From Candidatus Saccharimonadia bacterium (GTDB taxonomy: Bacteria; Patescibacteriota; Saccharimonadia; UBA4664): a stretch of 64,000 nt of DNA. The DNA lies in assembly GCA_035544015.1 (NCBI GenBank), contig DATKIP010000093.1:345454-409453 (forward strand). Reading direction: 5' to 3'. The notes beneath the pieces are model-generated. The model worked only from the letters and a program-made list of their open reading frames with translations, was not told the origin of the DNA and did not search any database. Below are positions 10,784 to 26,363 of this stretch, piece by piece; position 1 is the first letter of the stretch, and each line of letters opens with the position of its first letter. The position numbers and the translations under genes were made by a program.

Positions 10784-10811
10784 TACCACCTTACAACCAA
10801 AATTATTCCAA

Positions 10812-10862: not shown

Positions 10863-10892
10863 AGCCTCTTGTCGTCGTTAAGGAGAAGCGCA

Positions 10893-11453: not shown

Positions 11454-11497
11454 TCACCGAGACGTCCACGCCGGCGAGGCCAAGCCCCGCCGAAACC

Positions 11498-11533
11498 ACC
11501 CAGGACGGCCCACCGCCGCGCCGTCCTGGGTGG
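11498..11533 (+). terminator. family hairpin CCAGGACGGCCCACCGCCGCGCCGTCCTGG
   Basis: Perfect inverted repeat after member B. Confidence 0.5.
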
Positions 11534-11639
11534 CCCACCCGCACCAAACCGCCGCAATACGTTACACTAAACAATGTCTCGGCCCAAGCCGCGTTCTTGC
11601 ACATCCCAAGCCATTTCTCACCACGAGGAGACCCCACCT

Positions 11640-12140: not shown

Positions 12141-12161
12141 CAATCGCGACGGCGCCGAGAC

Positions 12162-12195
12162 ACCGCCGGGGATGGCGCAACGACGCCCCATCCCC
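12162..12195 (+). terminator. hairpin CCGGGGATGG-loop-CCATCCCCGG after member C
   Basis: 10-bp perfect stem. Confidence 0.45.
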
Positions 12196-12224
12196 GGCGC
12201 CGAACCCGAACATAAATCCAACAA

Positions 12225-12290
12225 AATAAAGACCCGAGACTCATTCGCGCAGTGGGTGGTCACCGCACGAAAAAGCTCGGGTCTTTATTA
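12225..12290. repeat. long inverted repeat AATAAAGACCCGAG...CTCGGGTCTTTATT (14-bp perfect arms, ~37-nt loop)
   Basis: Seen in sequence. Borders a ~270-bp low-GC island (12290..12560) upstream of dprA. Confidence 0.5.
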
Positions 12291-12503
12291 CACCCTTCAA
12301 CCTCACCTCGGGGGCGTTTTATGCGAAACGCGTATAGCGTAACGGGTGTGAAGGGACTAATCCGCCTGCAGTGAATAGCTAAAGGAGGGTGCATTTAGAT
12401 ATTCTTACAGGCGAATTAGTGGTATGTTGAGGTGGTTCTTGCCTACGCATTGCAGGCATAACTAAGATGCTAACACACTTTACGGATTCTGTCAACAATA
12501 ATT

Positions 12504-13352: not shown

Positions 13353-13427
13353 GCATTTGGCTGTCCGCTCCCGCATGATTTACACTGGTACCCGTCTCGT
13401 TGTTTCCCGTCCAAGAGAGCAGGATGC

Positions 13428-13988
13428 ATGGCCACCAAGACCACCAGCACGCCCAGCCGAGCGAGAGGGCGGGTCCGCGCCGTCCTACTGTCTTTGATCC
13501 TCCTCGCTGGCGTCATCACGCTGGGTTCGCAAGTCACCATTAGCAAGAATCCCGCCCTGCCCAGCGAGAGCCCGCAGCCGGCCCAAACGACCTGTGTTCC
13601 GCCGCCGGGAGCCAAGACCTGCAAACCCGATCCCAAGCTCTATGTCGTCCTGGTGAAATGGAGCGGCCTCGACGGTAAACCCGAGGGGCCGGACATCAAG
13701 GTCGCGCCCGAACCACTCGTAGCCGACTCCGCCCCGGTCATCGACGCAGGACGCTGGGTAGCCATCACGACGGCCAATCCCACTGCCGCCAGCAAATTTG
13801 CGGTCACGGTCGGAGTGAGCGCGAAGAAGACTCCGCGAAAGATCGAGCAGGCCCAGACCAGCTGCCGTGTTTTTCCATTCACCGGAACCCAAATCACACT
13901 CCGCGCAGCCGAGGCCAGCATCGCCGGAAGTGACCCGATCACCACTGGCACAGGCAGTGATGTAACTCGCTGCCTGGTACCCCGGTAA
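13428..13988 (+). CDS. small secreted four-Cys protein, family member D (D/E/F subfamily)
   Basis: N-terminus basic plus LLSLILLAGVITL. Cys pair TTCVPPPGAKTCKP plus C-terminal SCRVF...RCLVPR. Shares LYVVLVKWSG / VAPEPL / WVAITTANP blocks with E and F. Confidence 0.6.
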   Translation: MATKTTSTPSRARGRVRAVLLSLILLAGVITLGSQVTISKNPALPSESPQPAQTTCVPPPGAKTCKPDPKLYVVLVKWSGLDGKPEGPDIKVAPEPLVADSAPVIDAGRWVAITTANPTAASKFAVTVGVSAKKTPRKIEQAQTSCRVFPFTGTQITLRAAEASIAGSDPITTGTGSDVTRCLVPR

Positions 13989-14011
13989 TCCGCAGGTACG
14001 AGACGCTCTGC

Positions 14012-14042
14012 CCGGAGGAACGGCCACGAACCGTTCCTCCGG
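14012..14042 (+). terminator. family hairpin CCGGAGGAACGGCCACGAACCGTTCCTCCGG
   Basis: Perfect inverted repeat after D, followed by the conserved GGCACCACC. Confidence 0.5.
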
Positions 14043-14155
14043 GGCACCACCAACTATTCGCTAGCCATAAACCAATCCTTGGCACTACAATAATTTCGTC
14101 TCGTGTCGCTCAGGAAAGCTCGTTCACATCCACGACCCAAGGGAGCTCCCACTCC

Positions 14156-14752
14156 ATGCCCAACGAGCAGCAAACACGCGGGATCAGCGCCGCAGGAGCT
14201 GCTGTCTTCGTCATCGGCCTCATCGCCATAGTAGGCCTAGCCGGTAACAACGATTCCGACAGCCGCCCGTCATCCTGTGGCCAGAAGCCAATAACCCATT
14301 CCGGAATTCCCGGAGCCCGCTTCACGAAGTTCGACTGCCTCCCGGGAGCTACCGCGCTCCCGGCTGTCACCCGGGCCCAGCGCGACCAAGAACTATACCT
14401 GGTCCTAGCCGGCTGGAAGGGCACCTCCAACGCCACCATCGGAGTCGTCCCTCCGCCCCTCGCCTCCACGGACTCGCTCTTCCAGGTCAGTGGCAATGAG
14501 GGCCTATGGTTTGGCCTGACCACCGCCAACACCAACCCTGCCATCAAGAATAGTAAGGGGAAGCCGGTGAAAGTCAGGGTGGTCATCCAAGCCAACCTCA
14601 GGGTAGGCAGCCGTTTGACCTGCGCCATCTATCGCATAACGAACTTCGACACACCCGGAAATGTTGCCAGTCAACACCGGCTGGAGCACAAAGAGTTCCA
14701 CCCCGACCGGCCTCTACGCAACCCGACCTTGGAATGCAGCATTCCCCTCTAG
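14156..14752 (+). CDS. small secreted four-Cys protein, family member E
   Basis: RBS aagggag. LYLVLAGWKG, VVPPPL, WFGLTTANT blocks. Cysteines SSCG...FDCLPG and TCAIYRITN...ECSIPL. Confidence 0.6.
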   Translation: MPNEQQTRGISAAGAAVFVIGLIAIVGLAGNNDSDSRPSSCGQKPITHSGIPGARFTKFDCLPGATALPAVTRAQRDQELYLVLAGWKGTSNATIGVVPPPLASTDSLFQVSGNEGLWFGLTTANTNPAIKNSKGKPVKVRVVIQANLRVGSRLTCAIYRITNFDTPGNVASQHRLEHKEFHPDRPLRNPTLECSIPL

Positions 14753-14779
14753 CACCAGCGGCACGAGACACCCGCACCA

Positions 14780-14814
14780 CCCGAGAACGGCGCCCTCCAG
14801 CGTCGTTCTCGGGG
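14780..14814 (+). terminator. family hairpin CCCGAGAACGGCGCC...CGTCGTTCTCGGGG
   Basis: Inverted repeat after E. 3' flank conserved with the F copy. Confidence 0.5.
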
Positions 14815-14860
14815 CACCACCCACCTAGGCGCTCCTTCACCCCAATCGGAAGGATCCATC

Positions 14861-15502
14861 GTGTCGAGAAGCCGAACAGCAGCGAAAGCACGCCTTCTTG
14901 TGATGGCGCTGATCGGAGCCAGTCTGGTCATCGGCACCACCCAAGTTGGCCGGATGCTTCCCGGCAGCAATGCGGACGCCTGCCCCGTCGCCACCCCCAA
15001 TCCCGCCGACAGCGGCGTGGTGGTAGTCGGAGCCAACGACTGCATCCCCCGGATGCCGCCAGTCCCCAAATCCATCAGAGACCGAGAGCTCTTCGTGGTC
15101 GTGGCTGGCTGGAGCAATCTCTTCGGGGTTCCCTACGAGACCGGCGTCAGCATCAATGTATCGCCGCCACCGCTCGGAATGACCGAACGCACCATTCGCC
15201 TGCCGCAACCTACAGGACACTGGTACGGCGTCACCATCGGCGCCCAACCCGGCGACATACCAGATTTCAAAGACAACAACTACCGGGTCCTCATGGGAGT
15301 GGGGGCTTCAGACGCCACCCACAAACACCACCCCAACTCCGGCCTGGCCTGCGGCATCTATCGCCTCACCACACCCGATGCACCCGAAAACAGCATCGTG
15401 CGAGCAAATTTTCTCAGCGGAGAAATCTCCACTCCCGCAGAAGAGGCCCCCCCCGATTATTCATTGCCGGTATCCCAACCGCAAGTAACGCCAGCGGCCT
15501 GA
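14861..15502 (+). CDS. small secreted four-Cys protein, family member F
   Basis: RBS ggaagga. LFVVVAGWSN, VSPPPL, WYGVTIGAQ blocks. Cysteines ADACP...NDCIP and ACGIYRLTT. Confidence 0.6.
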   Translation: MSRSRTAAKARLLVMALIGASLVIGTTQVGRMLPGSNADACPVATPNPADSGVVVVGANDCIPRMPPVPKSIRDRELFVVVAGWSNLFGVPYETGVSINVSPPPLGMTERTIRLPQPTGHWYGVTIGAQPGDIPDFKDNNYRVLMGVGASDATHKHHPNSGLACGIYRLTTPDAPENSIVRANFLSGEISTPAEEAPPDYSLPVSQPQVTPAA

Positions 15503-15521
15503 GCACGAGACGCCCGCACCA

Positions 15522-15558
15522 CCCGGGAACGGCGCCACACAGCGGTGCCGTTCCCGGG
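15522..15558 (+). terminator. family hairpin CCCGGGAACGGCGCC...GGTGCCGTTCCCGGG
   Basis: Inverted repeat after F. Confidence 0.5.
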
Positions 15559-15602
15559 GCACCACCGCTTGAACCCGCGCCCATACCTGCTACAATATCA
15601 AA

Positions 15603-16559
15603 ATGAAGTTTTGGCAACAGCTACCGCAGCCGTTCTTTGTGCTAGCCCCCATGGACGACGTCACCGACGTGGTTTTTCGGCAGCTCATAGCCGAAATCGC
15701 GCCACCAGACGTCTTCATGACCGAATTCGTCTCGGTGGACGGCCTCCAATCAGCCGGCCGCACCGTCACGCTCGAACGCCTGCGCATCGCCCCCGGCAGC
15801 GCCAGCAACCTCGTGGCCCAAATCTGGGGCAACGACCCCGAGCGCTTCTACCGTTCCGCCCAAGACATCGCCGCGCTGGGCTTCGCCGGCATCGACATCA
15901 ACATGGGCTGCCCCGAGAAGGGGATTGTAGCCCGCGGCTGCGGTGGCGGCCTCATCGGCCACCCCGACGCCGCGGCCGACATCATCGCCGCCACCAAGGC
16001 CGGCGCGCCCCATCTGCCCGTCAGCGTCAAGACTCGCCTCGGCCTCGGCCAACCCATCACCGAAGACTGGGCTGGCTTCCTGCTCGGCCAAGACCTTGCC
16101 GCCCTCACCATCCACGGCCGGACCGTGCGCGAAATGAGCAAAGTCCCGGCGCACTGGGACGAAATCGCCAAAGTAGTGCGCCTACGCAACCAACTGGCCG
16201 TGCCCACCAAGATCATCGGCAACGGCGACATCGAAAGCCGCGCCCACGGCCTGCAATTGGCCTCAGACACCGGCGTCGACGGCCTCATGATCGGCCGTGG
16301 CATCTTCCACGACCCCTTCATCTTCGACCCCGCCCAGGCCACCGCTGACCCCCAAAAACGCCTCGCCATCCTCCTCCGCCACGTCGAGCTCTACGAGCAG
16401 TGGGGGAGTACCAAGTCGTTCCAAACCCTGAAGAAATTCTTCAAAATCTATGCCAACTCCTGGCCCGGCGCCGCCGAACTGCGCGCCGAACTCATGGAGA
16501 CTTCCATGCCAGCGCAGACACGAGGCATTATTGCCGCACATTTAGGAAAAATCCAGTAG
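15603..16559 (+). CDS. dus: tRNA-dihydrouridine synthase
   Basis: Dus/TIM-barrel motifs FVLAPMDDVTDVVFR and GIDINMGCPEK. Confidence 0.85.
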   Translation: MKFWQQLPQPFFVLAPMDDVTDVVFRQLIAEIAPPDVFMTEFVSVDGLQSAGRTVTLERLRIAPGSASNLVAQIWGNDPERFYRSAQDIAALGFAGIDINMGCPEKGIVARGCGGGLIGHPDAAADIIAATKAGAPHLPVSVKTRLGLGQPITEDWAGFLLGQDLAALTIHGRTVREMSKVPAHWDEIAKVVRLRNQLAVPTKIIGNGDIESRAHGLQLASDTGVDGLMIGRGIFHDPFIFDPAQATADPQKRLAILLRHVELYEQWGSTKSFQTLKKFFKIYANSWPGAAELRAELMETSMPAQTRGIIAAHLGKIQ

Positions 16560-16580
16560 AATAATTCACGTCTCGTACAG
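16548..16580 (+). promoter_or_regulatory. putative promoter of member G (TAGAATAAT -10-like box followed by CACGTCTCGTACA); overlaps the last codons of dus
   Basis: Motif shared with the upstream regions of H, E and N. Confidence 0.4.
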
Positions 16581-16628
16581 CCTGAGACGTCCTTCCCATC
16601 CCAACGGTTGCCCCAGGAGGCAAACAAA

Positions 16629-17213
16629 ATGAGCCGCACCGCCCAGCGCGGAGTGATTGCCCGGATCGGTGGCCTCTTGTTCACAGTCGTGGCGCTCTTA
16701 GCCGGCACTGTAGCGATCATGAGCTCGACCGGCACCAAGACCTGCAAGTCCGCACCGGCCCCCGCTCCAGCCGTCCAGTTGGCAGCCCAAACCGCCGCGG
16801 CCCCCGAGAGCACCCGGTACGTCTTCTTGGCCCAATGGACTCGCTTCCAGCCCAACGAAGTCAACATTCTCTACACCGACTACCTGGAAGATGGCCACCC
16901 GCGCAAGCAGATCGTCCTCGACACTGACAAGGGCCCCAGCAGCTGGAAGACCGTGATCACCGCGCCAAACGGCAGCAAGCCCACGCTCGAGATCACGCCG
17001 CCCCCCTGGGCCTGCAACGATGTCCATGGGCTCACCAAAGGCGCCTCTGTGAGCTGTGTCGTTTACCTGGTCAGCACCAGCAAGCCGGAAGACAGCATGA
17101 TCCCGTCCAACGTCCAGGCCCGTGCCACCAACACGACCGGACAAAGCGCAATTTGCAAGGACTTCACCGCCGGGAAGCGGAAGCACGCCTCAGAACTCGA
17201 TCCCGAGCACTAG
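16629..17213 (+). CDS. small secreted Cys-containing protein, family member G
   Basis: RBS aggagg, spacer 8 nt, ATG. MSRTAQRGVIARIGGLLFTVVALLAG...TGTKTCKSAP. C-terminal WACND...SCVVYLVS...ICKDF. Confidence 0.6.
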   Translation: MSRTAQRGVIARIGGLLFTVVALLAGTVAIMSSTGTKTCKSAPAPAPAVQLAAQTAAAPESTRYVFLAQWTRFQPNEVNILYTDYLEDGHPRKQIVLDTDKGPSSWKTVITAPNGSKPTLEITPPPWACNDVHGLTKGASVSCVVYLVSTSKPEDSMIPSNVQARATNTTGQSAICKDFTAGKRKHASELDPEH

Positions 17214-17261
17214 CCGGGCACCGCGTACATCCGAGACTGTCCCGCCGAGGCACAGCACCCC

Positions 17262-17300
17262 GGCACGGGGGCCGCAATGGCGCAAAACAGCGCCATCGCG
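17262..17300 (+). terminator. hairpin GGCCGCAATGGCGC-loop-GCGCCATCGCGGCC after member G
   Basis: Near-perfect 14-bp inverted repeat. Sibling copy at 18508. Confidence 0.5.
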
Positions 17301-17407
17301 GCCCCCCGCACCATCGTCCCAACCCCAGCACCCGTCCGTCGCTCTAGCAGCCCTTTCACAACCACGGCCACGCAAAGCCCCATCAGCCACCCAGCGAGCG
17401 TCAGATC

Positions 17408-17725
17408 GTGCTCCGATTGGCCTGGCGGCAAGCCCCCGACGGCGTCACCATCCGCTACCGGATCGGCCACCAGCGCGAAATCACCATAACCGACGGCCGG
17501 CACGAACACGAAGGGCTTGAGTTTCCCGTCCCCGCCGAAATCGGCGACGAGATCAAGCTTTCTATCACGCCGGTCTTCGAAAACGAATTCACCCCCACGA
17601 ACGTGCGCTGCTTCATCTACCAGATCAAGTTCGGCCGACGCATCGAGGGGCACGTGGATCCGCCACACGGCTATACCCCCGACGCGCTTGAATCTGCCCA
17701 CTGCAAGTGGGTAGTCACGCCCTAG
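17408..17725 (+). pseudogene. N-terminally truncated remnant of the small Cys-pair family (domain only, no anchor or signal)
   Basis: Carries the family C-terminal hallmarks (RCFIYQIKF...HCKWVVTP). The upstream region is occupied by the G hairpin. A P/T/A linker-like stretch is present in another frame (17277 ORF), implying frameshift or deletion decay. Confidence 0.35.
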
Positions 17726-17823
17726 CCGGTTCGGGGACGGCGGCATCACCGTCGTCCCCGAACCCCCAAATCTATTGAAATCCGCGCCGTCCCGAGGCCA
17801 AACCTCAAAAACCCTTTTAAGCA

Positions 17824-17858
17824 AAAATCCAGTAGAATAATTCACGTCTCGTACAACG
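17824..17858 (+). promoter_or_regulatory. putative promoter of member H (TAGAATAAT...CACGTCTCGTACA), part of a ~130-bp duplicated block
   Basis: Near-identical to 16548..16580 including AAAAATCCAGTAG, which is the terminal KIQ-stop of dus at the G locus. Confidence 0.4.
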
Positions 17859-17903
17859 TGAGGCTTCTTTCCATCCCAACTTTTGCCCCAGGAGGCAGAC
17901 AAC

Positions 17904-18461
17904 ATGACTCGCACCGCCCGGCGCGGAGTGATTGCTCGGATCGGTGGCCCCGTGGTCACGGTCTCAATACTAGCGATCGGAGCCATAGTGATCGCCAACT
18001 CAACCGGCACCAAGACCTGCAAGTCCGCACCGGGCCCCGCTACTCCGGCCACCACCAAGCCCGCATCGGCCTCCAGCGACTGCTCCACCCCACCCGGCTC
18101 CCAGACCACCGCTCTTCGGCATGTCCACACGTACTACGGCACCTCCACAAAAACCGGCTACGCTATGGGCGCCCAGTACCAAGTCGGGCCGATTAGCGGC
18201 AATATACTCCCGTTCTCTCGCGGCAAGCGCGAAGCCAGCTGGACCGGCCTACTCACCGCCTTCGAAGGCGACCCACTCACAATCGACATCACCGGGGTCG
18301 GCGACGCTAACCCGACAGCCAAAGTCGCGTGCGCCTTCTACCGCATCACCGACCCGGCCAATCTCAGGGCCAACGCCGTACCTGCCAACCTCGTCGGAGT
18401 ACCCCAGTCCGGCACGGGCCCAAAGGGCCACGCCCACTGCGAAATAATCTCCGGCGAGTAG
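17904..18461 (+). CDS. small secreted four-Cys protein, family member H
   Basis: RBS ggagg then ATG. MTRTARRGVIARIGGPVVTV...TGTKTCKSAP (N-terminus near-identical to G). CST...ACAFYRITD...HCEIISGE. Confidence 0.6.
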   Translation: MTRTARRGVIARIGGPVVTVSILAIGAIVIANSTGTKTCKSAPGPATPATTKPASASSDCSTPPGSQTTALRHVHTYYGTSTKTGYAMGAQYQVGPISGNILPFSRGKREASWTGLLTAFEGDPLTIDITGVGDANPTAKVACAFYRITDPANLRANAVPANLVGVPQSGTGPKGHAHCEIISGE

Positions 18462-18507
18462 TCCCTCACGCCACCCGAGACACCCCGCCGAGGCACAACG
18501 CCCCGGC

Positions 18508-18545
18508 GCAGAGGCCGCAATGGCGCAGCGTTGCGCCATTGCGGC
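18508..18545 (+). terminator. hairpin GGCCGCAATGGCGCAGCGTTGCGCCATTGCGGCC after member H
   Basis: Perfect 15-bp palindrome. Confidence 0.55.
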
Positions 18546-18652
18546 CCACCCGCACCCTGCATTGATATTAAAAATCCGACATTATGCCGTAAAATTAAGT
18601 CGTCTCGCGTCCAGCCCCGCAGCACCCCACAATCCACCACCGGAGGACTTCT

Positions 18653-19135
18653 GTGCTCACTCGTACCCCCACCAGGCCTCGATCAGGCAAGAGATCCAAG
18701 GCCGTGTGGGCGATTATTGCCATAGGGCTCCTGATCCTCGGACTCCAAGCCCTCTCCGCACCCAGCAATCGATCCGCACCCCACAGCGGCGCCACCCCTA
18801 CCACTACCCAAACCGCCGAAGTCATCGAACTCGGCGGCAACTGGAACAGCGTAGATGGTGACGTCAAGATCACCATCACCACCAACGGCCATGCGATCCC
18901 CTTGCCAGAAACCTTCCCCGGCAACCTCTACGACTGGAACCAACCACACGTGGTCGCTCCAGGCGACGAGGTGGTACTCAACATCAGGCCGGTCAACCCG
19001 CAAGACAAGCACTATACGATGTATTGCAAAATCTTCGGTCCGAACGGAATCCCGGTCGACGAACAGCCCGGCATCCACGACGACCATATCAACGACGGGG
19101 TCACCTGCTACTACCCGTTGCGGCCCAAGCCCTAG
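18653..19135 (+). CDS. small secreted Cys-pair protein, family member I
   Basis: RBS ggagga then GTG. Basic N-terminus plus AVWAIIAIGLLILGL. YCKIFGPNG...TCYYPL. Confidence 0.55.
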   Translation: MLTRTPTRPRSGKRSKAVWAIIAIGLLILGLQALSAPSNRSAPHSGATPTTTQTAEVIELGGNWNSVDGDVKITITTNGHAIPLPETFPGNLYDWNQPHVVAPGDEVVLNIRPVNPQDKHYTMYCKIFGPNGIPVDEQPGIHDDHINDGVTCYYPLRPKP

Positions 19136-19162
19136 CTGCCTTCACGAGGCGTGAGACGCCGG

Positions 19163-19197
19163 CCCCAGGATGGCACACCGAAGTGTCATCTTGGGGC
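19163..19197 (+). terminator. hairpin CCCCAGGATGG-loop-TCATCTTGGGG after member I (G-U containing stem as RNA)
   Basis: Seen in sequence. Confidence 0.35.
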
Positions 19198-19243
19198 ACG
19201 CCAGCATGAAACCCTCCACCCTTGATGCCCGAGGAGAACATCC

Positions 19244-19774
19244 GTGCGTACCACCGCTCAGCGCGCCCCCAGTAGGCTGCGCCAAACGCTGCTTGTCATC
19301 CTTGCCGGCGCGCTAGCGATCGGCATCGGAACCAACTTGCCAACCAGCCAATCCGCCACACCCCCAGCCGCACGACCCACCCGGCACCTCTCGGTCGTGC
19401 CGCAGCCCACAGTCAGCACCGAGCCCAGTGCCATCACGAGCGCACCGGTCGCCACGGGGCCCGAAGAGCGATGGTTCCATCTGCAAGGCCACTGGGACCT
19501 GCCGGCCAAGCCCGGCAAACCCCACGTTCGGGTTGTCATTACCGTCATCGTCTTGGGCTCCGCTCCCGACCCAACCCCCTCCGAGGACCCCTTCGGTAAC
19601 TTCGATAGTTGGGTATCCACCCCGGGCCCCGGCGTAATGCTTCGCATTGCCCCCAAAACGCCCGAGCCCCGCACCCCAAAGATGAGCTGCAGCATCCATG
19701 ACGAACATGACCTGCCCATCGGCATCGTCTACCCGGTGGATCGCACGGGCGGAGCGTTGTGCGTGGCCCGGTAA
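19244..19774 (+). CDS. small secreted Cys-pair protein, family member J
   Basis: RBS gaggag then GTG. RLRQTLLVILAGALAIGIG. Long P/T/A linker. SCSIHDEHD...LCVAR. Confidence 0.55.
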   Translation: MRTTAQRAPSRLRQTLLVILAGALAIGIGTNLPTSQSATPPAARPTRHLSVVPQPTVSTEPSAITSAPVATGPEERWFHLQGHWDLPAKPGKPHVRVVITVIVLGSAPDPTPSEDPFGNFDSWVSTPGPGVMLRIAPKTPEPRTPKMSCSIHDEHDLPIGIVYPVDRTGGALCVAR

Positions 19775-19803
19775 ATCGAGCTGAGCTCCACGAGGCACCA
19801 TAG

Positions 19804-19835
19804 CCCAGGACGGCCCACCGCCGGGCCGTCCTGGG
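19804..19835 (+). terminator. family hairpin CCAGGACGGCCCACCGCCGGGCCGTCCTGG
   Basis: Third copy of the A/B-type hairpin. Confidence 0.5.
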
Positions 19836-19897
19836 CTCTTGCCCAACCCGCTCCACGCTTGCATCCTCCACCTCCACCAGATACGGTAGGGAATACC

Positions 19898-20053
19898 ATG
19901 AAGAAAGCTGTCGTACTCATAATCGGCGTTCTGGTATATCTTTGGTTTCTCCAAGCAGCCCAAGACGTGGCCGCCAGCCAGCTCACCGAGCTCCAATACT
20001 TATACACAAGCTCAGGCGCTCAAGCCGCCGCCATTTCAAATCCCAACAGATAG
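19898..20053 (+). CDS. 51-aa small hydrophobic/secreted peptide (MKKAVVLIIGVLVYLWFLQAAQDVAAS...)
   Basis: RBS gggaa then ATG. Signal- or TM-like N-terminus. Codon usage is markedly lower GC3 than neighbouring genes. Followed by an AT-rich region carrying TGGTATAAT. Confidence 0.3.
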   Translation: MKKAVVLIIGVLVYLWFLQAAQDVAASQLTELQYLYTSSGAQAAAISNPNR

Positions 20054-20107
20054 CTCATCTACCCACCACTATTTCGTCAAAACACGCAGGGTAAATTTAT
20101 TATGCTC

Positions 20108-20120
20108 GTGGTATAATCAG
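20108..20120 (+). promoter_or_regulatory. extended -10 promoter TGGTATAAT upstream of member K (followed by CGGCTCGTAC)
   Basis: Consensus TGnTATAAT seen in sequence. Confidence 0.4.
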
Positions 20121-20273
20121 CCACTTTCGGCTCGTACAAATCTAGCGTCATCCCCAAGTTAATGGCCCTGCAACCACAATTATTGGCGTGTCAAAACCAC
20201 AGAGTTCCGATACAATGGTTCCCGGCTTGCGTGGCAAGCCCCGTCCCATACCCACCGCAGGAGGGATTGTGCA

Positions 20274-20771
20274 GTGGTTTTGACCGGGCAACGTCCATCA
20301 ACCCGACGACGAGGCATGCGCAGCGTAGTCACGACCGTGCTCATCGTTGCAGCCGTTCTGTGGGGACTGCCTAGGCTCAACCCCGACACGCAGACCTGCT
20401 CCGCCGTGGCACAAACCAGCTCCCAACCTCAAGGCGACTGCTCCACCGGACCCAAAATCCGATTCCGGCTCTCGTGGTCCGAAGCACCCGAAGGCCTGGT
20501 CGTCGAGTACTACGCCGACGGCCACGGCCTGGGCCCAACGCACCCCGACACTGCATACGACGAATGGGACGTCACGCTGCCGGGAACCGTCGGGTTCATT
20601 AGCCTCAGCGCCCCCAGAGGCTCCTACATCGGCTTCTTGAAGTGCCGGCTTTCAAACCCCGACACCAACGAGCAATACGACGCCGCCGAGTACTTCCCCG
20701 TGGATGGACCCCTACAGCAGCTGCCGAGCGGAAAATGGGGCATTGAATGCCACACGCCGGGCATAGCCTAA
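20274..20771 (+). CDS. small secreted four-Cys protein, family member K
   Basis: RBS ggaggg then GTG. VVTTVLIVAAVLWGL. TQTCS...GDCSTG and KCRLSNPDT...ECHTPG. Confidence 0.55.
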   Translation: MVLTGQRPSTRRRGMRSVVTTVLIVAAVLWGLPRLNPDTQTCSAVAQTSSQPQGDCSTGPKIRFRLSWSEAPEGLVVEYYADGHGLGPTHPDTAYDEWDVTLPGTVGFISLSAPRGSYIGFLKCRLSNPDTNEQYDAAEYFPVDGPLQQLPSGKWGIECHTPGIA

Positions 20772-20901
20772 CACCGGGTGAACCTCCATTCGCCTGATCA
20801 CTCCGGGATGGCCCAATGTCGCGCTATCCCGGAAGGTCCTAGAATTATCATTCTCATCTGCGCTAAAATCATGTGGTCCGCTGTTCGCCCGTCGAAAGGT
20901 A

Positions 20902-21399
20902 GTGTTCGTGACAACCACCCAGCGGCACCGGCCAAAAGCCCGGGGTAGCGGCAGGGTACTCCTGGCGATAGCCGGCCTCATCGCTGCCGTTATTGTCATC
21001 CCGTTCCCAGCCAAAACCCACCCCAACCCCGTCACTACGCCATCGGTAACCCCAGCCGGTCCCCGGGCAGTCGAATTCAAATTCGACGCCACCCTCACCG
21101 GACTGGCCCATACCGAGATCGAAACCGAGGTTGGTGGAGCCGCACAGCCGCATCCCAATATCATCACTCCCACCTGGGAGACCACTCGGCCAGGCACCGA
21201 GTACCAGTCGGCCGAGATGACGATCACGCCCCGGGAAACCACCAACCGGTCGCGCGTAACCGGCGTCAGAACCATCTGCCAAATCTTCGTGCGCATCCTC
21301 CCGAACGGCGCGTTCGAAGGCCAGGCCTACGTGCCCGGGTTTAGTGTGAATGAACAGATCACGTGCCGAGCACATCCACCCTACGCGCTAACCGGGTAG
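20902..21399 (+). CDS. small secreted Cys-pair protein, family member L
   Basis: GTG start (20902 or 20908), RBS gaaagg. VLLAIAGLIAAVIVI. ICQIFVRIL...TCRAHPP. Only 6 bp upstream of M (operon). Confidence 0.55.
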   Translation: MFVTTTQRHRPKARGSGRVLLAIAGLIAAVIVIPFPAKTHPNPVTTPSVTPAGPRAVEFKFDATLTGLAHTEIETEVGGAAQPHPNIITPTWETTRPGTEYQSAEMTITPRETTNRSRVTGVRTICQIFVRILPNGAFEGQAYVPGFSVNEQITCRAHPPYALTG

Positions 21400-21405
21400 G
21401 GCATC

Positions 21406-21933
21406 ATGCTCCGCACCCGCAGTCGCATCGCACCCGCAGTCCTCGCGCTCGCTGCTCTTGCTAGCTTTGCTTGGTTGGCCGCCGTGCCACATCCGCCGGC
21501 CAACCATGATGCCACCATCGTCATCTACTACCCAACCCCAGCCCAGGCCGACGCCGTACCGGCACCCCGACCGCCGACCACGATCGACGACGATCACGTC
21601 CGCTACTGGGCGGTGATCGAATGGGAGCGTTCTGCCGGCGTATCAATCGCCTACCTGATCGGACCAGTAGCGCCAGCCCCCACTACCGACAAACGGCCGG
21701 ATGGGGTCGAAAAAATTCTCATTACGGCACCTCGCGACAGCCTCATTCAGGTACATGTAGTGCCTCACCGGCTGCCTCGTGGAAACAGCTACGCCAGCCA
21801 ATGCGCCGTGTATCTCGTCACCCAGCTCGCACCGCTGGAAGACAACGAAAAGATACCGAACATGCGGGCCCACGACGTCACCACCCCCGGCAAAACCGGC
21901 ATCACCTGCACGCTCACAGCCACCGGCGTGTAG
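21406..21933 (+). CDS. small secreted Cys-pair protein, family member M
   Basis: ATG start. APAVLALAALASFAWLAAV. QCAVYLVT...TCTLTATGV. Confidence 0.55.
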   Translation: MLRTRSRIAPAVLALAALASFAWLAAVPHPPANHDATIVIYYPTPAQADAVPAPRPPTTIDDDHVRYWAVIEWERSAGVSIAYLIGPVAPAPTTDKRPDGVEKILITAPRDSLIQVHVVPHRLPRGNSYASQCAVYLVTQLAPLEDNEKIPNMRAHDVTTPGKTGITCTLTATGV

Positions 21934-21951
21934 CAATTGCCCGCCTCACAC

Positions 21952-21985
21952 CCCCAAGACGGCCCACTGTCGTGCCGTCTTGGGG
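21952..21985 (+). terminator. family hairpin CCCCAAGACGGCCCACTGTCGTGCCGTCTTGGGG
   Basis: Perfect inverted repeat. Sibling at 22552. Confidence 0.5.
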
Positions 21986-22069
21986 CCCTCCATCGCACTA
22001 ATACCACCACATGCGTTACAATAATCGGCGTCTCGTAAACCCAACCCGACCCGCAAAGGATGGCGCAAC

Positions 22070-22531
22070 GTGATCACCGGAACGAGAAGGAGGGGCCGGC
22101 TCCTCCTCGTCGTCCTAGCAGTCATCGGCCTCCTAGCCGGTGTAGCCGAGGGAATGGGGGCCTTCAGCCAGCAACGCACCCTCGTGCTCGTTGCCCAATG
22201 GACCAATACCCCAGGGGGCGTAGAGATCGATGCCGCAGCCAATGGCATTAAGCTGGACCCGACAGATCCCAGCTACACCACCGGTACCCCCCTCGACGCC
22301 GCTACAGGCTTCCGCAGGATCACCGTAACGGCCGCTTTCGCCCACATCATTGTCGGTAACGTCATACCCGCAATACGAATCGATAGCAGGGTCCGCTGCG
22401 CCGTCTTCGACCCCCAGATCAAAGCGCCACTTTTTTCAGATACTGTCACCGGACGAACCGGTGCCCAGGCTACCTGCTACTACAACGAGACGGTACGGCC
22501 AACACCGGCACCACCCACACCGACGAGATAA
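22070..22531 (+). CDS. small secreted Cys-pair protein, family member N
   Basis: GTG start. RRRGRLLLVVLAVIGLLAGVAEG. RCAVFDPQI...TCYYNETV. Upstream TACAATAAT...CGTCTCGTAA motif at 22013..22036. Confidence 0.55.
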   Translation: MITGTRRRGRLLLVVLAVIGLLAGVAEGMGAFSQQRTLVLVAQWTNTPGGVEIDAAANGIKLDPTDPSYTTGTPLDAATGFRRITVTAAFAHIIVGNVIPAIRIDSRVRCAVFDPQIKAPLFSDTVTGRTGAQATCYYNETVRPTPAPPTPTR

Positions 22532-22656: not shown

Positions 22657-23265
22657 TTACCAGCTGTGGCGGGCGAGCCAGTGGCTGTAGGCGCTAGCCC
22701 AGGAGCCGAACCGGCCTACTGCGTAGGCGTTAGCCCAGCGCAGCTGCGTGACCGGGTTGGTCAGGTAGTCCGAACCAAACGGTGCCATTTTACTAGCAGG
22801 CATGGCCTGGCCGAGGCCGTACGCACCCGAGCCAGCGTAGTTGCTCTTGGTTACACCCCAACCACTCTCGTGGTCGATGATGTAGTCGACATAGCCAAAA
22901 TCTCGTTCGGCGATGCCGGCGGCTCGCATCCAGTCGGCGTGACTGCCAGCAATCTGGATCGTCACCACCGGGCGAGCTACTACCCGCTTGGCCGCAGCCT
23001 TGGCTTTCTCGGCCGCCAATTTGGCAGCCGCCTCAGCCTGGGCCTGAGCCGCGTGCAGGGGAGCGAGCACTTCGGCATCGTAGTCGGGCTTTTTAGGGCC
23101 GACTATCTCAACCGCCGAAGCAGTGTTGGTATTAAGTTTCACCTCGTAGACTCCAACGGCGCTGTCCGAAGACGTTGCCGTGGCGGCCACATCACTTAAG
23201 AAAGGAATGTGCACCTGAGAAGCTAGCAGCACCAGAGATGCCGCGAACTGCAAGATGTTACGCAT
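22657..23265 (-). CDS. secreted transglycosylase-like / lysozyme-like cell-wall hydrolase domain protein
   Basis: Signal peptide MRNILQFAASLVLLASQVHI. Ala/Lys-rich helical linker. C-terminal DYIIDHESGWGVTKSNYAGSGAYGLGQAMP...LRWANAYAVGRFGSWASAYSHW, resembling the transglycosylase-like (Rpf/SLT-type) fold. Confidence 0.5.
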   Translation of the reverse strand: MRNILQFAASLVLLASQVHIPFLSDVAATATSSDSAVGVYEVKLNTNTASAVEIVGPKKPDYDAEVLAPLHAAQAQAEAAAKLAAEKAKAAAKRVVARPVVTIQIAGSHADWMRAAGIAERDFGYVDYIIDHESGWGVTKSNYAGSGAYGLGQAMPASKMAPFGSDYLTNPVTQLRWANAYAVGRFGSWASAYSHWLARHSW

Positions 23266-23345: not shown

Positions 23346-23595
23346 GTGAACGCGACGTAGTATATACCAATTACCTATTTTTGTCAATAGCATAAGCGGG
23401 TTAATCGGATAACTCCCGCCCCAACGAACCCGCGCCCTCGAGCATTCGAAGTCTAAAACTTAGACAAAATCTGCTCATCTACGCTCAAACTATCCCTCAA
23501 ATTCTAAACTTTAGACCACCCTCTACCCACATCCACCCGAAGGGGGAGTCAAAAATAACCCAAAGCAACCCGACAAAAAATGTTACAATATCCTT

Positions 23596-23958
23596 ATGCT
23601 TCTTGTGGCCTTTGTGCAGTGGTGGTACGGGCCCGGCTGGCGCGACGCCGCCGGCCGTTTGTTGGCGCGTATTCACGATACCTATCTGTTGTTTTCGGTT
23701 CCAAGCCTGCTCACTACCATGTTTGCCCCGTGGCGGCGCATTATTTCGTCACCCGGCCGCAGCATCGGCGACCGTGCCCGGGCCACACTCGACAACCTCA
23801 TTTCGCGGGTCGTCGGCTTCATCGTGCGACTCATCGCCCTTATCGCCGCCGGCGTCATCATCACGCTCTACCTCGTACTGGGCGGAATCCTCCTGCTCGT
23901 GTGGCCGGTGGCGCCGCTGCTGGGCCCCATCCTGATCGTAGGAGGATTAATCTTTTGA
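23596..23958 (+). CDS. small integral membrane protein (120 aa, Trp-rich, 3 predicted TM segments)
   Basis: MLLVAFVQWWYGPGW...LIALIAAGVIITLYLVLGGILLLVWPVAPLLGPILIVGGLIF. Its stop overlaps the TTG start of the downstream Clp-like gene. Confidence 0.5.
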   Translation: MLLVAFVQWWYGPGWRDAAGRLLARIHDTYLLFSVPSLLTTMFAPWRRIISSPGRSIGDRARATLDNLISRVVGFIVRLIALIAAGVIITLYLVLGGILLLVWPVAPLLGPILIVGGLIF

Positions 23959-26363
23959 GCCGGTACACCTTTAATGCCGGGGCCCTGCGCATCACCAAAG
24001 CCCGCACCGCCCGCCTCATACCCGGCACGCTCAAAACCCTGCTCGGCGCCGTCGCCGGGCTCAGCCTCATCTCCGGTGTCGTCCTGATAATCCTGGGCCA
24101 CAACCCCGGACTGAGCCTCACGGGCGTGGCAGTGGCGCTCATCACGACGCTCATCTGGATTCGCCGCGACCTCGACCAATTGCCAGCCGCTGCCGTCGGC
24201 TCCACCACCCAGCTCGAGGCTTTGCTGCCCCTCGAGCTGGCCTCGCATTACCGCGAGCCATTTACTGCCGCCGGATTGTGGCAAGCCCTGGGCGCCGGCT
24301 GGGAGACGCGTTTCATCTGTGTTCGCTTTGGCCTCGATCTCAACCTAATCGCTCAAATCCTCGCCCAAAGCAGCCTCGACCCCGACCAGCTCTGGAGCAC
24401 GGCCGAACAAACCAGCACCGAACTGGGCCTTCCCACGCTCGAAGCCGGCACCATCCTCACCGCCCTGTTTGCCGTCAGCCCCGAGCTCACGGGTTACCTC
24501 ACCAAGATCAAACTCACCCCAGCCGATCTGGCCGAAGGCGCCCGCTGGGTCCATCGCGTCGACGAACTCAGCCATATCAAACGGCCTATTTACGGCGGCA
24601 TCGCGCGCGACTGGGCTTCGGGCTTCACGCCCCAGCTGTCGCGCTTTGGCACCAACATTAGCCTCGAGGTCGAATCCGCCGCCGGCAACCTCGCCACCCA
24701 AGAGCGCACCGACCAGCTCGACGACCTGGTGACCGGCCTCAACAGTGCCTCGGGCAGCGTCGTGCTCATCGGCGAGCCCGGCGTCGGCAAAAGCGCCCTA
24801 CTGCTAGGCCTCGCCGAGCGCCTGCTCCAGGGCCGTGCCAGCCGCAGCTTGGCCCATTACCAGATCTACTCGCTCAGTGCCTCCACCATCCTCTCCAGCT
24901 CCGAGCGCAGCGGCGACATCGAGCGCATCGTGATGACCCTGCTATCCGAAGCCGGCCACGCCGGGAACATCATCATCGCCCTCGACGAAGCCCAGCTGTT
25001 TTTCGGCCAGGGCACCGGCGCCGTCAACCTCAGCCAAGTGTTGCTGCCGCTCCTCCAATCACGCAGCTTCAAGCTCGTGCTCGCGCTCACCCCCGGCGAC
25101 TGGCAGCGGCTCAAAGCCACCAACACCGCCATGGCCAGCCTGCTCACCCCGCTCGTGCTCGCCGAGCCCGGCCAAGCCAATGTTGTGCGCCAGCTCGCCG
25201 ACCGCGCGCTGTATCTGGAAAAAGGCCAACTCCTCACCACCTATTCGGCGCTCGTCGAGGCCTACCGGCTGTCCGGCCGCTACCTCCAAGACGAAGCCTA
25301 CCCCGGCAAAGCCCTCAAGCTCCTCGAGGCCGCCTTCAACCACCCCGATGGCTCGTTCATATCCGAAATATCCGTTGAGCAAGCCATAGAAAGCCAGTTT
25401 GGCGTCAAAGTCCAAACCGCCACCTCGGCCGAATCCGACGTCTTGCTCCACCTCGAAGACAAAATTCACGAGCGCATGATCAACCAAACCCGCGCCGTCA
25501 GCGTGGTCGCCAACGCCCTGCGCCGCGCCCGCGCCGGCGTCGCCAACCCCAAGCGACCCATCGGCAGCTTCTTGTTCCTCGGCCCCACCGGCGTCGGTAA
25601 AACCGAGCTCGCCCGCAGCATTGCCGCGCTCTATTTCGGTAACGAGTCCAACATCATCCGCCTCGACATGTCCGAGTACCAACAGATCGCCGACGTCGAC
25701 CGCATCCTCATGTCGGCCGCCGAAAACCCCTCCGGCCTCCTCCCGCGCGTCCGCCAAACCCCATTTAGCGTCGTGCTGTTCGACGAAATCGAAAAAGCCC
25801 ACCCCAATATCCTCAACCTCCTCCTCCAACTCCTCGACGAGGGCAACCTCACCGACACCACCAGTCATCCCGCGTCATTTAAAGACGCGATCATTATCGC
25901 CACCTCCAACGCCGGGGCCGAAGAAATTCGCCAGCGCATCGAAGCCGGGCAAGCCCTCGAAACCTTCGAACAAGAGTTCACCAATAGCCTCATCGATTCC
26001 GGCGCTTTCCGGCCTGAGCTTCTCAACCGCTTTGACGAAATCGTGCTGTTCAGGCCTCTCAACCAGGCTGAGCTCGCCCAAGTCGTGCGCCTCATGATCA
26101 CCGAGGTCAACAAAACCCTCGCCAACCAAAAAATCATCGTCGCCCTCACCGACGCCGCCGCGGCCGAGCTCGTCGTGGCCGGCTACGACCCCCGCCTCGG
26201 CGCCCGCCCGATGCGCCGCATGGTGACTCGCCGCGTCGAAGACACCGTCGCCGCCATGATCCTGCGCGGCGAGGCTCGCCCCGGCGACACCATCACCCTC
26301 GATGCCGGCCAGCTCGGCGGCGGCAGCGAACCAACCCCAGTTGATCCGCCGCTTGAAGTTTAG
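23955..26363 (+). CDS. ClpB/ClpC-family double-AAA+ ATPase with N-terminal transmembrane segments replacing the canonical Clp N-domain
   Basis: RBS aggagg 9 nt before TTG 23955. The long 23580 ORF extension is Arg-rich junk from another frame. TM helices (LLGAVAGLSLISGVVLIIL, LTGVAVALITTLIWI). D1 Walker A VVLIGEPGVGKSALLLGLAERL. D2 Walker A FLFLGPTGVGKTELARSIA. Sensor-2 RPELLNRFDEIVLFRPL. TSNAG motif. Confidence 0.8.
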   Translation: MSRYTFNAGALRITKARTARLIPGTLKTLLGAVAGLSLISGVVLIILGHNPGLSLTGVAVALITTLIWIRRDLDQLPAAAVGSTTQLEALLPLELASHYREPFTAAGLWQALGAGWETRFICVRFGLDLNLIAQILAQSSLDPDQLWSTAEQTSTELGLPTLEAGTILTALFAVSPELTGYLTKIKLTPADLAEGARWVHRVDELSHIKRPIYGGIARDWASGFTPQLSRFGTNISLEVESAAGNLATQERTDQLDDLVTGLNSASGSVVLIGEPGVGKSALLLGLAERLLQGRASRSLAHYQIYSLSASTILSSSERSGDIERIVMTLLSEAGHAGNIIIALDEAQLFFGQGTGAVNLSQVLLPLLQSRSFKLVLALTPGDWQRLKATNTAMASLLTPLVLAEPGQANVVRQLADRALYLEKGQLLTTYSALVEAYRLSGRYLQDEAYPGKALKLLEAAFNHPDGSFISEISVEQAIESQFGVKVQTATSAESDVLLHLEDKIHERMINQTRAVSVVANALRRARAGVANPKRPIGSFLFLGPTGVGKTELARSIAALYFGNESNIIRLDMSEYQQIADVDRILMSAAENPSGLLPRVRQTPFSVVLFDEIEKAHPNILNLLLQLLDEGNLTDTTSHPASFKDAIIIATSNAGAEEIRQRIEAGQALETFEQEFTNSLIDSGAFRPELLNRFDEIVLFRPLNQAELAQVVRLMITEVNKTLANQKIIVALTDAAAAELVVAGYDPRLGARPMRRMVTRRVEDTVAAMILRGEARPGDTITLDAGQLGGGSEPTPVDPPLEV

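What the first reader, a model, noticed from the sequence alone, without database searches (positions are those of the whole stretch)
23596..26363. Membrane-anchored ClpB/ClpC-like double-AAA+ ATPase translationally coupled to a small Trp-rich membrane protein
The Clp-like protein has two complete AAA+ modules with classic Clp signatures: D1 GEPGVGKSAL, D2 FLFLGPTGVGKTELA, and sensor-2 RPELLNRFDEIVLF. Where Clp ATPases normally carry the soluble N-domain, this one has ~60 residues with two predicted TM helices. Its TTG start overlaps the stop of a 120-aa three-TM protein (ttTGa coupling, RBS aggagg).

A long M-domain coiled coil is not apparent. The D1 Walker B reads ALDEAQ rather than the usual DE(I/L)H.

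Membrane-tethered Clp-type unfoldases are unusual. The pairing suggests a dedicated membrane-protein extraction or quality-control machine, or a secretion-associated unfoldase, rather than a canonical cytosolic disaggregase. The 927-aa annotated ORF is an artefact of the GC-rich upstream frame.
Basis: partly seen in the sequence, partly recalled or inferred. Interest (0 to 1): 0.7.

Follow-up and report, generated by a model that had tools for sequence, protein, structure and literature searches.

The report
Membrane-anchored Clp-like ATPase without gripping loops
A two-gene unit conserved across the ultra-small Patescibacteria encodes a small membrane protein and a membrane-tethered relative of the Clp/Hsp100 protein-unfolding motors that has lost the tyrosine loops such motors use to pull on proteins, so it probably works differently from any characterised family member.

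Summary
The core observation holds. Window 23596-23958 encodes a 120-aa membrane protein. Its stop overlaps (TTGA) the TTG start of an 802-aa Clp/Hsp100-type double-AAA+ ATPase (23955-26363) that begins with a transmembrane helical hairpin.

Two corrections:
- The partner more likely has a two-helix hairpin than three TM helices.

All 115 homologues lack the pore-loop tyrosines in both rings; a 4-aa deletion removes GYVG from D2. They also lack the D1 arginine fingers, an M-domain and a ClpP-docking loop, while the D2 catalytic residues are invariant.

The two genes are adjacent in 77 of 77 testable genomes, and 63 have an NTGA overlap. The pair also occurs in Parcubacteria-type lineages and once as a natural fusion. 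A conserved leaderless-type promoter precedes it.

One cultivated Saccharibacterium (S. epibionticum) also encodes an ordinary ClpC, ClpP and FtsH. Published Tn-seq for probable orthologues calls both genes dispensable, with a late growth defect.

Best reading: an uncharacterised, Patescibacteria-wide, membrane-tethered Hsp100 derivative with an obligate small membrane subunit, doing D2-driven work without canonical threading or proteolysis. New variant of a known kind.

The parts
23581..23589 (+). Extended -10 promoter element TGTTACAAT, ending 6 nt before the partner's ATG. No Shine-Dalgarno follows, so the mRNA is probably leaderless.
   Evidence: Sequence read. A TANNNT hexamer (mostly TGnTACAAT) ends 5-9 nt before the start codon, 6-7 nt in the rows printed, in 71 of 78 loci, against 6.6% at random positions. 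An SD-like motif is present in only 2 of 78. Promoter function is inferred, not shown.
23596..23958 (+). Partner gene: a 120-aa small membrane protein. It has a Trp/Arg-rich cytoplasmic part (aa 1-71; motifs WWYGxGW, FSxxxLLxTLFxPWRR, DNxxSRxxGxxxR) and a hydrophobic helical hairpin (aa 72-120; WPxxP).
   Evidence: Identical to P0121. 121 homologues of about 119-120 aa. 18 invariant residues. AlphaFold2 pLDDT 90. Charge and hydropathy profile. No Pfam, NCBIfam, PHROGs, PADLOC or PDB sequence match. 1312 clusters at 50% identity in 1.84 billion representatives.
23940..23945 (+). AGGAGG Shine-Dalgarno for the ATPase, inside the partner's last codons (V-G-G), 9 nt before the TTG start.
   Evidence: GGnGG-type sequences sit at the same place in most of the 77 loci.
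23955..23958 (+). TTGA start/stop overlap (translational coupling).
   Evidence: An NTGA overlap occurs in 63 of 77 loci, a 1-nt overlap in 6, and a 0-3 nt gap in 8.
23955..26363 (+). ATPase gene, 802 aa: TM hairpin, then Clp N-like domain, conserved linker, D1 and D2.
24039..24161 (+). Transmembrane helical hairpin (aa 29-69), with both ends in the cytoplasm. W68 is invariant.
   Evidence: Charge-free columns flanked by K/R-rich segments. AlphaFold2 helices 24-46 and 51-73 at pLDDT 93-97. The topology is inferred from the positive-inside rule.
24204..24575 (+). Divergent Clp N-terminal domain (aa 84-207).
24585..24632 (+). Family-specific invariant linker P-x-Y-G-G-I-A-R-D-W-A-S-G-F-T-P (aa 211-226) between the N-domain and D1.
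   Evidence: G214, G215, R218, D219, W220, G223 and P226 are invariant in alignment A2. A related motif is kept in the Parcubacteria-type branch. Its role is unknown.
24738..25352 (+). D1 AAA+ module (aa 262-466). Walker A (GEPGVGKS) and Walker B (ALDEAQ) are kept. The pore-loop Tyr is replaced by variable small or polar residues (aa 313-320). The arginine fingers RR are replaced by S-L (aa 395-396).
   Evidence: HMMER alignment to S. aureus ClpC 6em8. Counts over 115 family sequences. Alignment with true ClpB and TssH.
25452..26309 (+). D2 AAA+ module with the ClpB D2-small domain (aa 500-785). Walker A, Walker B, sensor-1 N652, arginine finger R692 and sensor-2 R751 are all invariant.
   Evidence: Pfam AAA_2 E = 4.9e-42 and ClpB_D2-small E = 1.3e-21. 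Conservation is 115 of 115. About 42% identity to ClpB in D2.
25710..25736 (+). Truncated D2 pore loop (aa 586-594, MSAAENPSG). The four residues carrying GYVG are deleted and no aromatic residue remains.
   Evidence: The deletion is shared by all Saccharimonadia and Parcubacteria-type members and is absent from the ClpB and TssH references.

Best explanation
Shown:
- The locus is a compact two-gene operon conserved across Patescibacteria.
- Gene 1 encodes a 120-aa protein with a positively charged, Trp-rich N-terminal part and a C-terminal hydrophobic helical hairpin.
- Gene 2 is translationally coupled to gene 1 through a TTGA overlap. It encodes a Clp/Hsp100-family ATPase ordered as TM hairpin, divergent Clp N-domain, invariant linker, D1, D2.
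- D2 keeps every catalytic residue.
- D1 keeps the Walker motifs in Saccharimonadia but has no arginine finger. It degenerates further in the Parcubacteria-type branch.
- Both pore loops lack the aromatic residue.
- There is no M-domain and no ClpP-docking loop.

Inferred:
- The two proteins are made in fixed ratio and form one membrane complex.
- By homology this is a hexameric double ring, held with its N-domain/D1 face against the cytoplasmic side of the membrane by the hairpins of both proteins.
- D1 serves as a nucleotide-binding assembly ring, and D2 is the only motor.
- Because the gripping loops are gone, the ATP cycle does not drive processive threading. Instead it remodels, releases or gates a membrane-associated client, possibly the partner itself, through the N-domain, the linker and the partner's cytoplasmic part.
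- No proteolysis is involved.
- The role is auxiliary rather than essential.
For: - Domain identity.
- TM hairpin conserved in 112-115 sequences: with the model.
- Clp N-domain fold.
- D2 catalytic residues invariant in 115 of 115.
- D1 arginine fingers absent, and pore-loop aromatics absent in both rings (0-3 of 115 per D1 column, 0 of 115 in the D2 loop proper).
- The same derived characters are shared by the distant Parcubacteria-type branch and absent from true ClpB and TssH.
- No [ILVM]G[FLIM] motif in 0 of 115, and no M-domain insertion.
- Obligate pairing: 77 of 77 loci. Overlap or gaps of at most 3 nt in all 77 loci where a start could be assigned. Also 4 of 4 Parcubacteria-type loci.
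- One natural fusion, P0447. Its first 114 residues match the partner profile (E = 1.4e-8) and replace the ATPase's own hairpin.
- Nothing else is consistently linked.
- In S. epibionticum a canonical ClpC (two Clp_N domains plus UVR), ClpP and FtsH coexist with the probable orthologue pair SEML1_0700/0701. Both genes of that pair score NE, NE, GD in Tn-seq (PMC10633639 Tables S1 and S2).
- Precedent for a Clp-related, membrane-associated AAA+ without aromatic pore loops that depends on membrane cofactors: torsins (PMC5425593).
Against: - No direct evidence of complex formation, oligomeric state, ATPase activity or a client.
- A non-canonical substrate-gripping element cannot be excluded. One candidate is the invariant aromatic-rich linker Y213/W220/F224.
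- A few Parcubacteria-type members have a Phe in the D1 loop.
- The fusion is a single 2.8-kb contig.
- Orthology of SEML1_0700/0701 rests on annotation, size, Pfam coordinates and gene order, not on sequence.
- Topology is inferred from charge distribution only.
Confidence: 0.55

Rival explanations
1. It is a canonical threading unfoldase that extracts membrane proteins or feeds a secretion route. The hexamer pulls membrane proteins out of the bilayer through its axial pore, and the small protein acts as adaptor.
For: - The membrane anchor sits at the N-terminal (substrate-entry) face of a Clp-type double ring.
- A Clp N-domain, the usual substrate or adaptor site, is retained.
- The D2 motor is intact.
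- The TssH references also lack an aromatic residue in D1 yet are threaders. They do keep GYVGY in D2.
Against: - No aromatic residue in either pore loop in 115 of 115 Saccharimonadia members.
- The D2 loop is shortened by the four GYVG residues in every member of both branches.
- D1 has no arginine finger.
- No secretion genes are linked.
Confidence: 0.2
2. The partner is the client rather than a subunit. The ATPase assembles, disassembles or gates an oligomer or channel made of the small hairpin protein.
For: - Strict co-occurrence and coupling.
- The partner is very highly conserved for a 120-aa protein, with 18 invariant residues.
- Both genes show the same Tn-seq phenotype.
Against: - Translational coupling and the natural fusion suggest a fixed 1:1 assembly rather than enzyme and substrate.
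- Nothing shows that the partner oligomerises.
Confidence: 0.15
3. It is a ClpP-dependent protease subunit ('ClpC', as JGI annotation names many homologues).
For: JGI names. Best PDB sequence matches are ClpC proteins.
Against: - No ClpP-docking tripeptide in 0 of 115.
- Scores lie far below the curated ClpA cut-off (327 against 993) and ClpB cut-off (397 against 1232).
- No UVR or M-domain.
- A separate canonical ClpC exists in S. epibionticum.
Confidence: 0.03
4. It is a catalytically dead scaffold or pseudo-enzyme.
For: D1 is degenerate. In the Parcubacteria-type branch Walker A reads GKM and Walker B reads IEDIE, and P0447 reads GVARH.
Against: D2 Walker A, Walker B, sensor-1, arginine finger and sensor-2 are invariant across 115 sequences. 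They are kept in the distant branch at about 45% identity.
Confidence: 0.05

Closest known systems
ClpB / ClpC (class-1 Clp/Hsp100 ATPases)
   Same: Clp N-domain fold, tandem D1 and D2, D2 of the AAA_2 type with the ClpB D2-small domain. D2 is about 42% identical to ClpB. The best sequence matches in the PDB are ClpC and ClpB.
   Different: - It has an N-terminal TM hairpin.
- No M-domain or UVR.
- No pore-loop tyrosines in D1 or D2, with a 4-aa deletion in D2.
- No D1 arginine fingers.
- No ClpP loop.
- It has an obligate small membrane partner.
- Scores are far below the curated family cut-offs.
Torsin ATPases with LAP1/LULL1 (eukaryotic ER and nuclear envelope)
   Same: Clp/Hsp100-related AAA+, membrane-associated, lacking aromatic pore loops, and dependent on transmembrane partner proteins (PMC5425593).
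   Different: - Torsins have one AAA+ module and lack their own arginine finger, which the cofactor supplies.
- Here D2 has its own arginine finger.
- The partner here is a 120-aa helical hairpin with no AAA-like fold.
- No homology of the partners is implied. The resemblance is functional and architectural only.
FtsH
   Same: A bacterial AAA+ ring tethered to the cytoplasmic membrane by two N-terminal TM helices per protomer.
   Different: - FtsH has a single AAA module with an aromatic pore loop, a periplasmic domain and a fused Zn-protease. None of these is present here.
- FtsH coexists in Saccharibacteria and becomes essential there (GD, GD, ES).
ClpV / TssH (type VI secretion)
   Different: TssH keeps GYVGY in D2 and the RR fingers in D1, is soluble, and sits in T6SS gene clusters. 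The score here is 251 bits against a cut-off of 885.
Plasmodium PTEX HSP101
   Different: From my own knowledge of the published PTEX structures, HSP101 is not itself membrane-anchored, keeps its pore-loop tyrosines, and docks on the EXP2 pore by its D2 face. Here the anchor is at the N-terminal face.

Membership tests
Clp/Hsp100 class-1 superfamily | Two tandem AAA+ modules, the second of AAA_2 type followed by the ClpB D2-small domain | tested here: met
   Pfam AAA_2 E = 4.9e-42 and ClpB_D2-small E = 1.3e-21. D1 aligns to ClpC residues 201-400.
Clp/Hsp100 class-1 superfamily | Clp N-terminal domain | tested here: met
Clp/Hsp100 class-1 superfamily | Aromatic pore-loop residues (KYR in D1, GYVG in D2) used for threading | tested here: not met
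   Absent in 115 of 115 sequences. GYVG is removed by a 4-aa deletion in both family branches.
Clp/Hsp100 class-1 superfamily | D1 trans-acting arginine fingers (RRF) | tested here: not met
   Replaced by [SGN]-[LMV] in all members.
ClpB / Hsp104 disaggregases | M-domain coiled coil inserted in the D1 small domain, and the NCBIfam equivalog cut-off | tested here: not met
   The D1 small domain runs straight into the D2 linker. TIGR03346 scores 397 bits against a cut-off of 1232.
ClpA / ClpC / ClpE (ClpP partners) | ClpP-docking loop ([ILV]-G-[FL]) in D2 | tested here: not met
   0 of 115 members have such a tripeptide between sensor-1 and the arginine finger. ClpA TIGR02639 scores 327 bits against a cut-off of 993.
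ClpV / TssH | T6SS gene context and the TIGR03345 cut-off | tested here: not met
   251 bits against 885. The neighbours are housekeeping genes.
Hexameric ring assembly (all Clp/Hsp100) | Formation of a double-ring hexamer | not testable with these tools
   Inferred by homology only.
Anti-phage defence AAA+ systems (PADLOC) | Match of both genes to a defence-system model | tested here: not met
   Only generic D2 similarity to DolB and PDC-M37B. The partner has no hit. The pair lies in conserved housekeeping synteny.

The most novel reading that the evidence does not exclude
The pair forms a new type of AAA+ membrane machine. A Clp-derived double ring has had its axial channel widened and stripped of gripping loops, and it docks by its entry face onto a ring of about 24 TM helices (six ATPase hairpins plus six partner hairpins). 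This would act as an ATP-gated conduit or membrane remodeller specific to Patescibacteria. It could serve, for example, uptake or handover of host-derived macromolecules or lipids, or envelope biogenesis in these episymbionts. It would not be a protein unfoldase.
Probability: 0.12. Interest if true: 0.9.

Novelty: new variant of a known kind. Interest (0 to 1): 0.64.

Why it matters
- Clp/Hsp100 motors are a textbook case of substrate threading by pore-loop tyrosines.
- This is a large, ancient subfamily. The partner alone forms about 1300 clusters at 50% identity, spanning at least two major Patescibacteria lineages.
- The subfamily keeps an intact D2 motor but has lost the gripping loops in both rings. 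It is bolted to the membrane and always comes with a small hairpin protein. That argues for a mode of action not yet described for bacterial Hsp100s. The only loose parallel is the eukaryotic torsins, whose mechanism is itself unresolved.
- The family is also one of the few conserved, still unannotated modules of Patescibacteria that can now be tested genetically, in S. epibionticum and N. lyticus.
- Databases currently label it 'ClpC' or 'AAA family ATPase', which is misleading.

Tried and rejected
- Partner protein: no hit in Pfam, NCBIfam, PHROGs, PADLOC, or a PDB sequence and profile search.
- A sequence-profile search of the N-region against the PDB gave only insignificant hits: ACE2 at E = 0.08, Hsp104-N at E = 0.3. 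The N-domain assignment therefore rests on fold.
- Neighbour-gene analysis of 77 loci found no third conserved component.
- Rfam and tRNA scans found nothing in the locus.
- Literature searches for a membrane-anchored or patescibacterial Clp found no description of the family. The Cell 2023 Tn-seq paper lists the probable orthologues only in its supplementary tables.
- The afdb50 fold library was unavailable.
- Cluster look-ups did not connect any hit to a cultivated strain.
- A full phylogeny against ClpA, ClpC, ClpE and ClpL could not be built, because only ClpB and TssH references were retrievable.
- Rejected readings: ClpP partner, defence system, dead pseudo-enzyme (see the rival explanations).
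Full report
**What is in the sequence.**
- The window comes from a Candidatus Saccharimonadia (TM7, Patescibacteria) genome. The ATPase is 100% identical to an 802-aa NCBI protein named 'AAA family ATPase [Candidatus Saccharimonadia bacterium]' (P0001). The small protein is identical to hypothetical protein VMT30_08435 (P0121).
- The mechanical ORF list gives a 927-aa frame (23580-26363) and, in another frame, a 120-aa ORF (23596-23958).
- Reading the DNA: the partner's TGA stop (23956-23958) overlaps a TTG (23955-23957). AGGAGG lies at 23940-23945, 9 nt upstream.
- Translation from 23955 gives 802 aa, the length of the database protein and of nearly all homologues.
- The first 28 residues are conserved at the amino-acid level: M1, Y4, F6, N7, R12 in 105 of 111, K15 and R17.

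**The pairing is real and general.**
- A profile of 42 partner homologues (A1) was used to scan one genome per GTDB species. It found 323 genomes. The 80 best loci are almost all Saccharimonadia or Saccharibacteria.
- In 77 of these the ATPase lies directly downstream on the same strand. The other three contigs end within 640 nt of the partner.
- The junction is an NTGA overlap in 63 of 77, a 1-nt overlap in 6 and a gap of 0-3 nt in 8.
- Nothing else is constantly linked. A MacB-like ABC ATPase and permease, pyrH, exonuclease III or an SLT-like gene flank the pair in different sub-clades.
- An exhaustive HMMER search of 1.84 billion representatives with the partner profile returned 1312 clusters with E at most 1e-3. 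The top 150 are all stand-alone proteins of about 120 aa.
- One cluster is from Candidatus Sungbacteria. There the 127-aa partner is followed after 7 nt by an 872-aa AAA protein.
- Three further Parcubacteria-type ATPase homologues each have a partner homologue (E 1e-23 to 1e-27) 2-5 nt upstream or overlapping.
- One protein, P0447 (826 aa, an uninterrupted ORF on a 2.8-kb contig), is a natural fusion. Residues 6-114 match the partner profile (E = 1.4e-8) and take the place of the ATPase's own hairpin. The N-domain, linker, D1 and D2 follow.
- This single Rosetta-stone case supports physical association. It also places the partner's C-terminus on the cytoplasmic side.
- An extended -10 element (TGnTACAAT) ends 6-7 nt before the partner's ATG in 71 of 78 loci, against 6.6% at random positions. 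A Shine-Dalgarno motif is present in only 2 of 78. The operon is therefore probably transcribed as a leaderless mRNA, and the second gene depends on coupling plus an internal GGnGG.

**Anatomy of the ATPase.**
- Pfam gives a strong AAA_2 plus ClpB_D2-small match for D2, and only generic P-loop hits for D1.
- NCBIfam places it nearest ClpB (397 bits), ClpA (327), ClpG/ClpK (about 300) and ClpV (251). All are far below the curated cut-offs.
- The best PDB sequence matches are ClpC and ClpB. D2 scores about 265 bits and D1 about 74 bits.
- In a 115-sequence family alignment, the columns for aa 29-46 and 52-65 contain no charged residue, and those for aa 47-51 and 66-69 almost none. They are separated by a 4-residue G-H-H-x turn and flanked by a K/R-rich N-terminus and R70-R71-D72. 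This is a helical hairpin with both ends in the cytoplasm, which places the ATPase modules in the cytoplasm.
- AlphaFold2 of residues 1-262 (pLDDT 84) predicts the hairpin (24-46, 51-73) and a helical domain at 84-207.
- Between the N-domain and D1 lies an invariant motif with no ClpB counterpart: P-x-Y-G-G-I-A-R-D-W-A-S-G-F-T-P.

**The catalytic and pore features.**
- I aligned the family with S. aureus ClpC and with bona fide ClpB and TssH sequences recovered.
- D1 keeps Walker A (GxxGxGK[ST]) and Walker B (hhhhD[ED]) in Saccharimonadia.
- The D1 pore-loop K-Y/F-R-G is replaced by variable small or polar residues, with 0-3 aromatics per column in 115 sequences.
- The RR arginine fingers of D1 are [SGN]-[LMV] in every member.
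- In the Parcubacteria-type branch D1 is more degenerate still: GKM, IEDIE, and GVARH in P0447.
- D2 keeps Walker A, Walker B (DE in 115 of 115), sensor-1 N, arginine finger R692 and sensor-2 GAR, all invariant.
- The D2 pore loop is four residues shorter than in ClpB and TssH. The deletion removes GYVG, and no aromatic residue remains.
- This deletion, the missing RR, the hairpin and the partner are shared by both branches. Those branches are only about 45% (D2) and about 28% (D1) identical to each other, roughly as far apart as either is from ClpB. These are therefore old, defining characters of the family.
- There is no M-domain insertion. No ClpP-docking tripeptide occurs in 0 of 115.

**The partner.**
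- 18 residues are invariant across 42 diverse members: W9, W10, Y11, G14, S34, L38, T41, P45, W46, D66, N67, S70, R71, G74, R78, W103, P104 and P107.
- Residues 13-71 carry on average 9 K/R against 3.5 D/E. Residues 72-120 form one 49-residue hydrophobic stretch with a single invariant Arg.
- AlphaFold2 (pLDDT 90) gives helices 2-11, 13-32, 35-40 and 57-119.
- Together with the fusion, this fits a cytoplasmic N-terminal part plus a two-pass hairpin better than three TM helices. No dedicated topology predictor was available.

**Biological context from the literature.**
- The supplementary tables of Wang et al. 2023 (PMC10633639) cover S. epibionticum ML1.
- They list a canonical ClpC (SEML1_0512: two Clp_N domains, UVR, AAA_lid_9; non-essential), ClpP (SEML1_0493; non-essential) and FtsH (SEML1_0729; scored GD, GD, ES).
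- They list no ClpX, Lon protease or HslU by name, and no gene product named ClpB.
- They also list SEML1_0700, 'AAA family ATPase', with AAA_2 at 544-706, D2-small at 713-792 and no Clp_N hit. It is preceded on the same strand by the 127-aa hypothetical SEML1_0701.
- Both of these are scored NE, NE, GD at T0, T1 and T2. Read counts fall 2.5-fold and 5-fold.
- I take these as probable orthologues on the basis of architecture and gene order. The sequences could not be checked here. If correct, the module is additional to ClpCP and FtsH and contributes modestly to fitness in co-culture.
- The paper does not discuss the two genes. No paper in the library describes the family.

**Mechanism.**
- Shown: composition, conservation, coupling, fold, and motif loss and retention.
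- Inferred:
  - There is a stoichiometric membrane complex.
  - By homology it is a hexameric double ring whose N-domain/D1 (entry) face is held at the membrane by short linkers of about 12 residues.
  - D1 acts as a nucleotide-binding assembly ring.
  - D2 is the only motor.
- The residues that couple ATP hydrolysis to polypeptide translocation are missing from both rings. I therefore think processive threading unlikely. I favour ATP-driven remodelling or gating of a membrane-associated client, or of the partner itself.
- The closest functional parallel is the torsin system. Torsins are Clp-related, membrane-associated, have no aromatic pore loops and depend on membrane cofactors (PMC5425593).
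- The threading/extraction model remains possible if another element grips the substrate. The invariant aromatic linker is one candidate.

**Verdict.**
- It is an uncharacterised, Patescibacteria-wide variant of the Clp/Hsp100 family, not a new kind of protein.
- The function is unknown and only indirectly constrained.

Noticed in passing
window 8372-22531 (+), e.g. 10851-11453, 11574-12140, 13428-13988, 14156-14752, 20274-20771, 22070-22531: There are at least 12 small ORFs (153-205 aa). Each has an Arg-rich N-terminus, one TM helix and a domain of about 110 aa with two conserved cysteines. Some pairs are detectably paralogous (46% identity for 10851/11574). The three tested have no Pfam hit. 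This may be an expanded family of surface-anchored proteins.
   Followed up: partly
window 1-64000: Every 2-kb bin has a strongly negative GC skew (-0.11 to -0.30) and a positive AT skew. Nearly all long ORFs are on the + strand.
   Followed up: no
window 22657-23265 (-) and 23359-23387 (-): A divergently transcribed 202-aa protein has a weak SLT/lytic-transglycosylase match (E = 0.0096, below the cut-off). It is conserved at position -1 in 16 of 77 loci. A near-consensus promoter-like site, TTGACA-17-TATACT, lies upstream of it.
   Followed up: partly
L087:139-2619 (protein P0447): A natural fusion of the partner with the ATPase. The partner's hairpin replaces the ATPase's own, and the D1 Walker A lysine is lost (GVARH). 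It is a single 2.8-kb contig.
   Followed up: yes
proteins P0468, P0470, P0477 (TssH/ClpV references): These T6SS ATPases have no aromatic residue in the D1 pore loop (ASMKGEFE) but keep GYVGY in D2.
   Followed up: no
proteins P0466, P0467, P0469, P0472, P0473: Proteins of about 1100 aa with AAA_2 plus ClpB_D2-small and no Clp_N, of unknown kind. They were returned by the search with the Sungbacteria ATPase.
   Followed up: no
L081, L082, L083 and L084, upstream of the Parcubacteria-type pairs: A DUF5666 protein of about 300 aa lies two to three genes upstream of the partner in the Sungbacteria and Parcubacteria loci examined.
   Followed up: no
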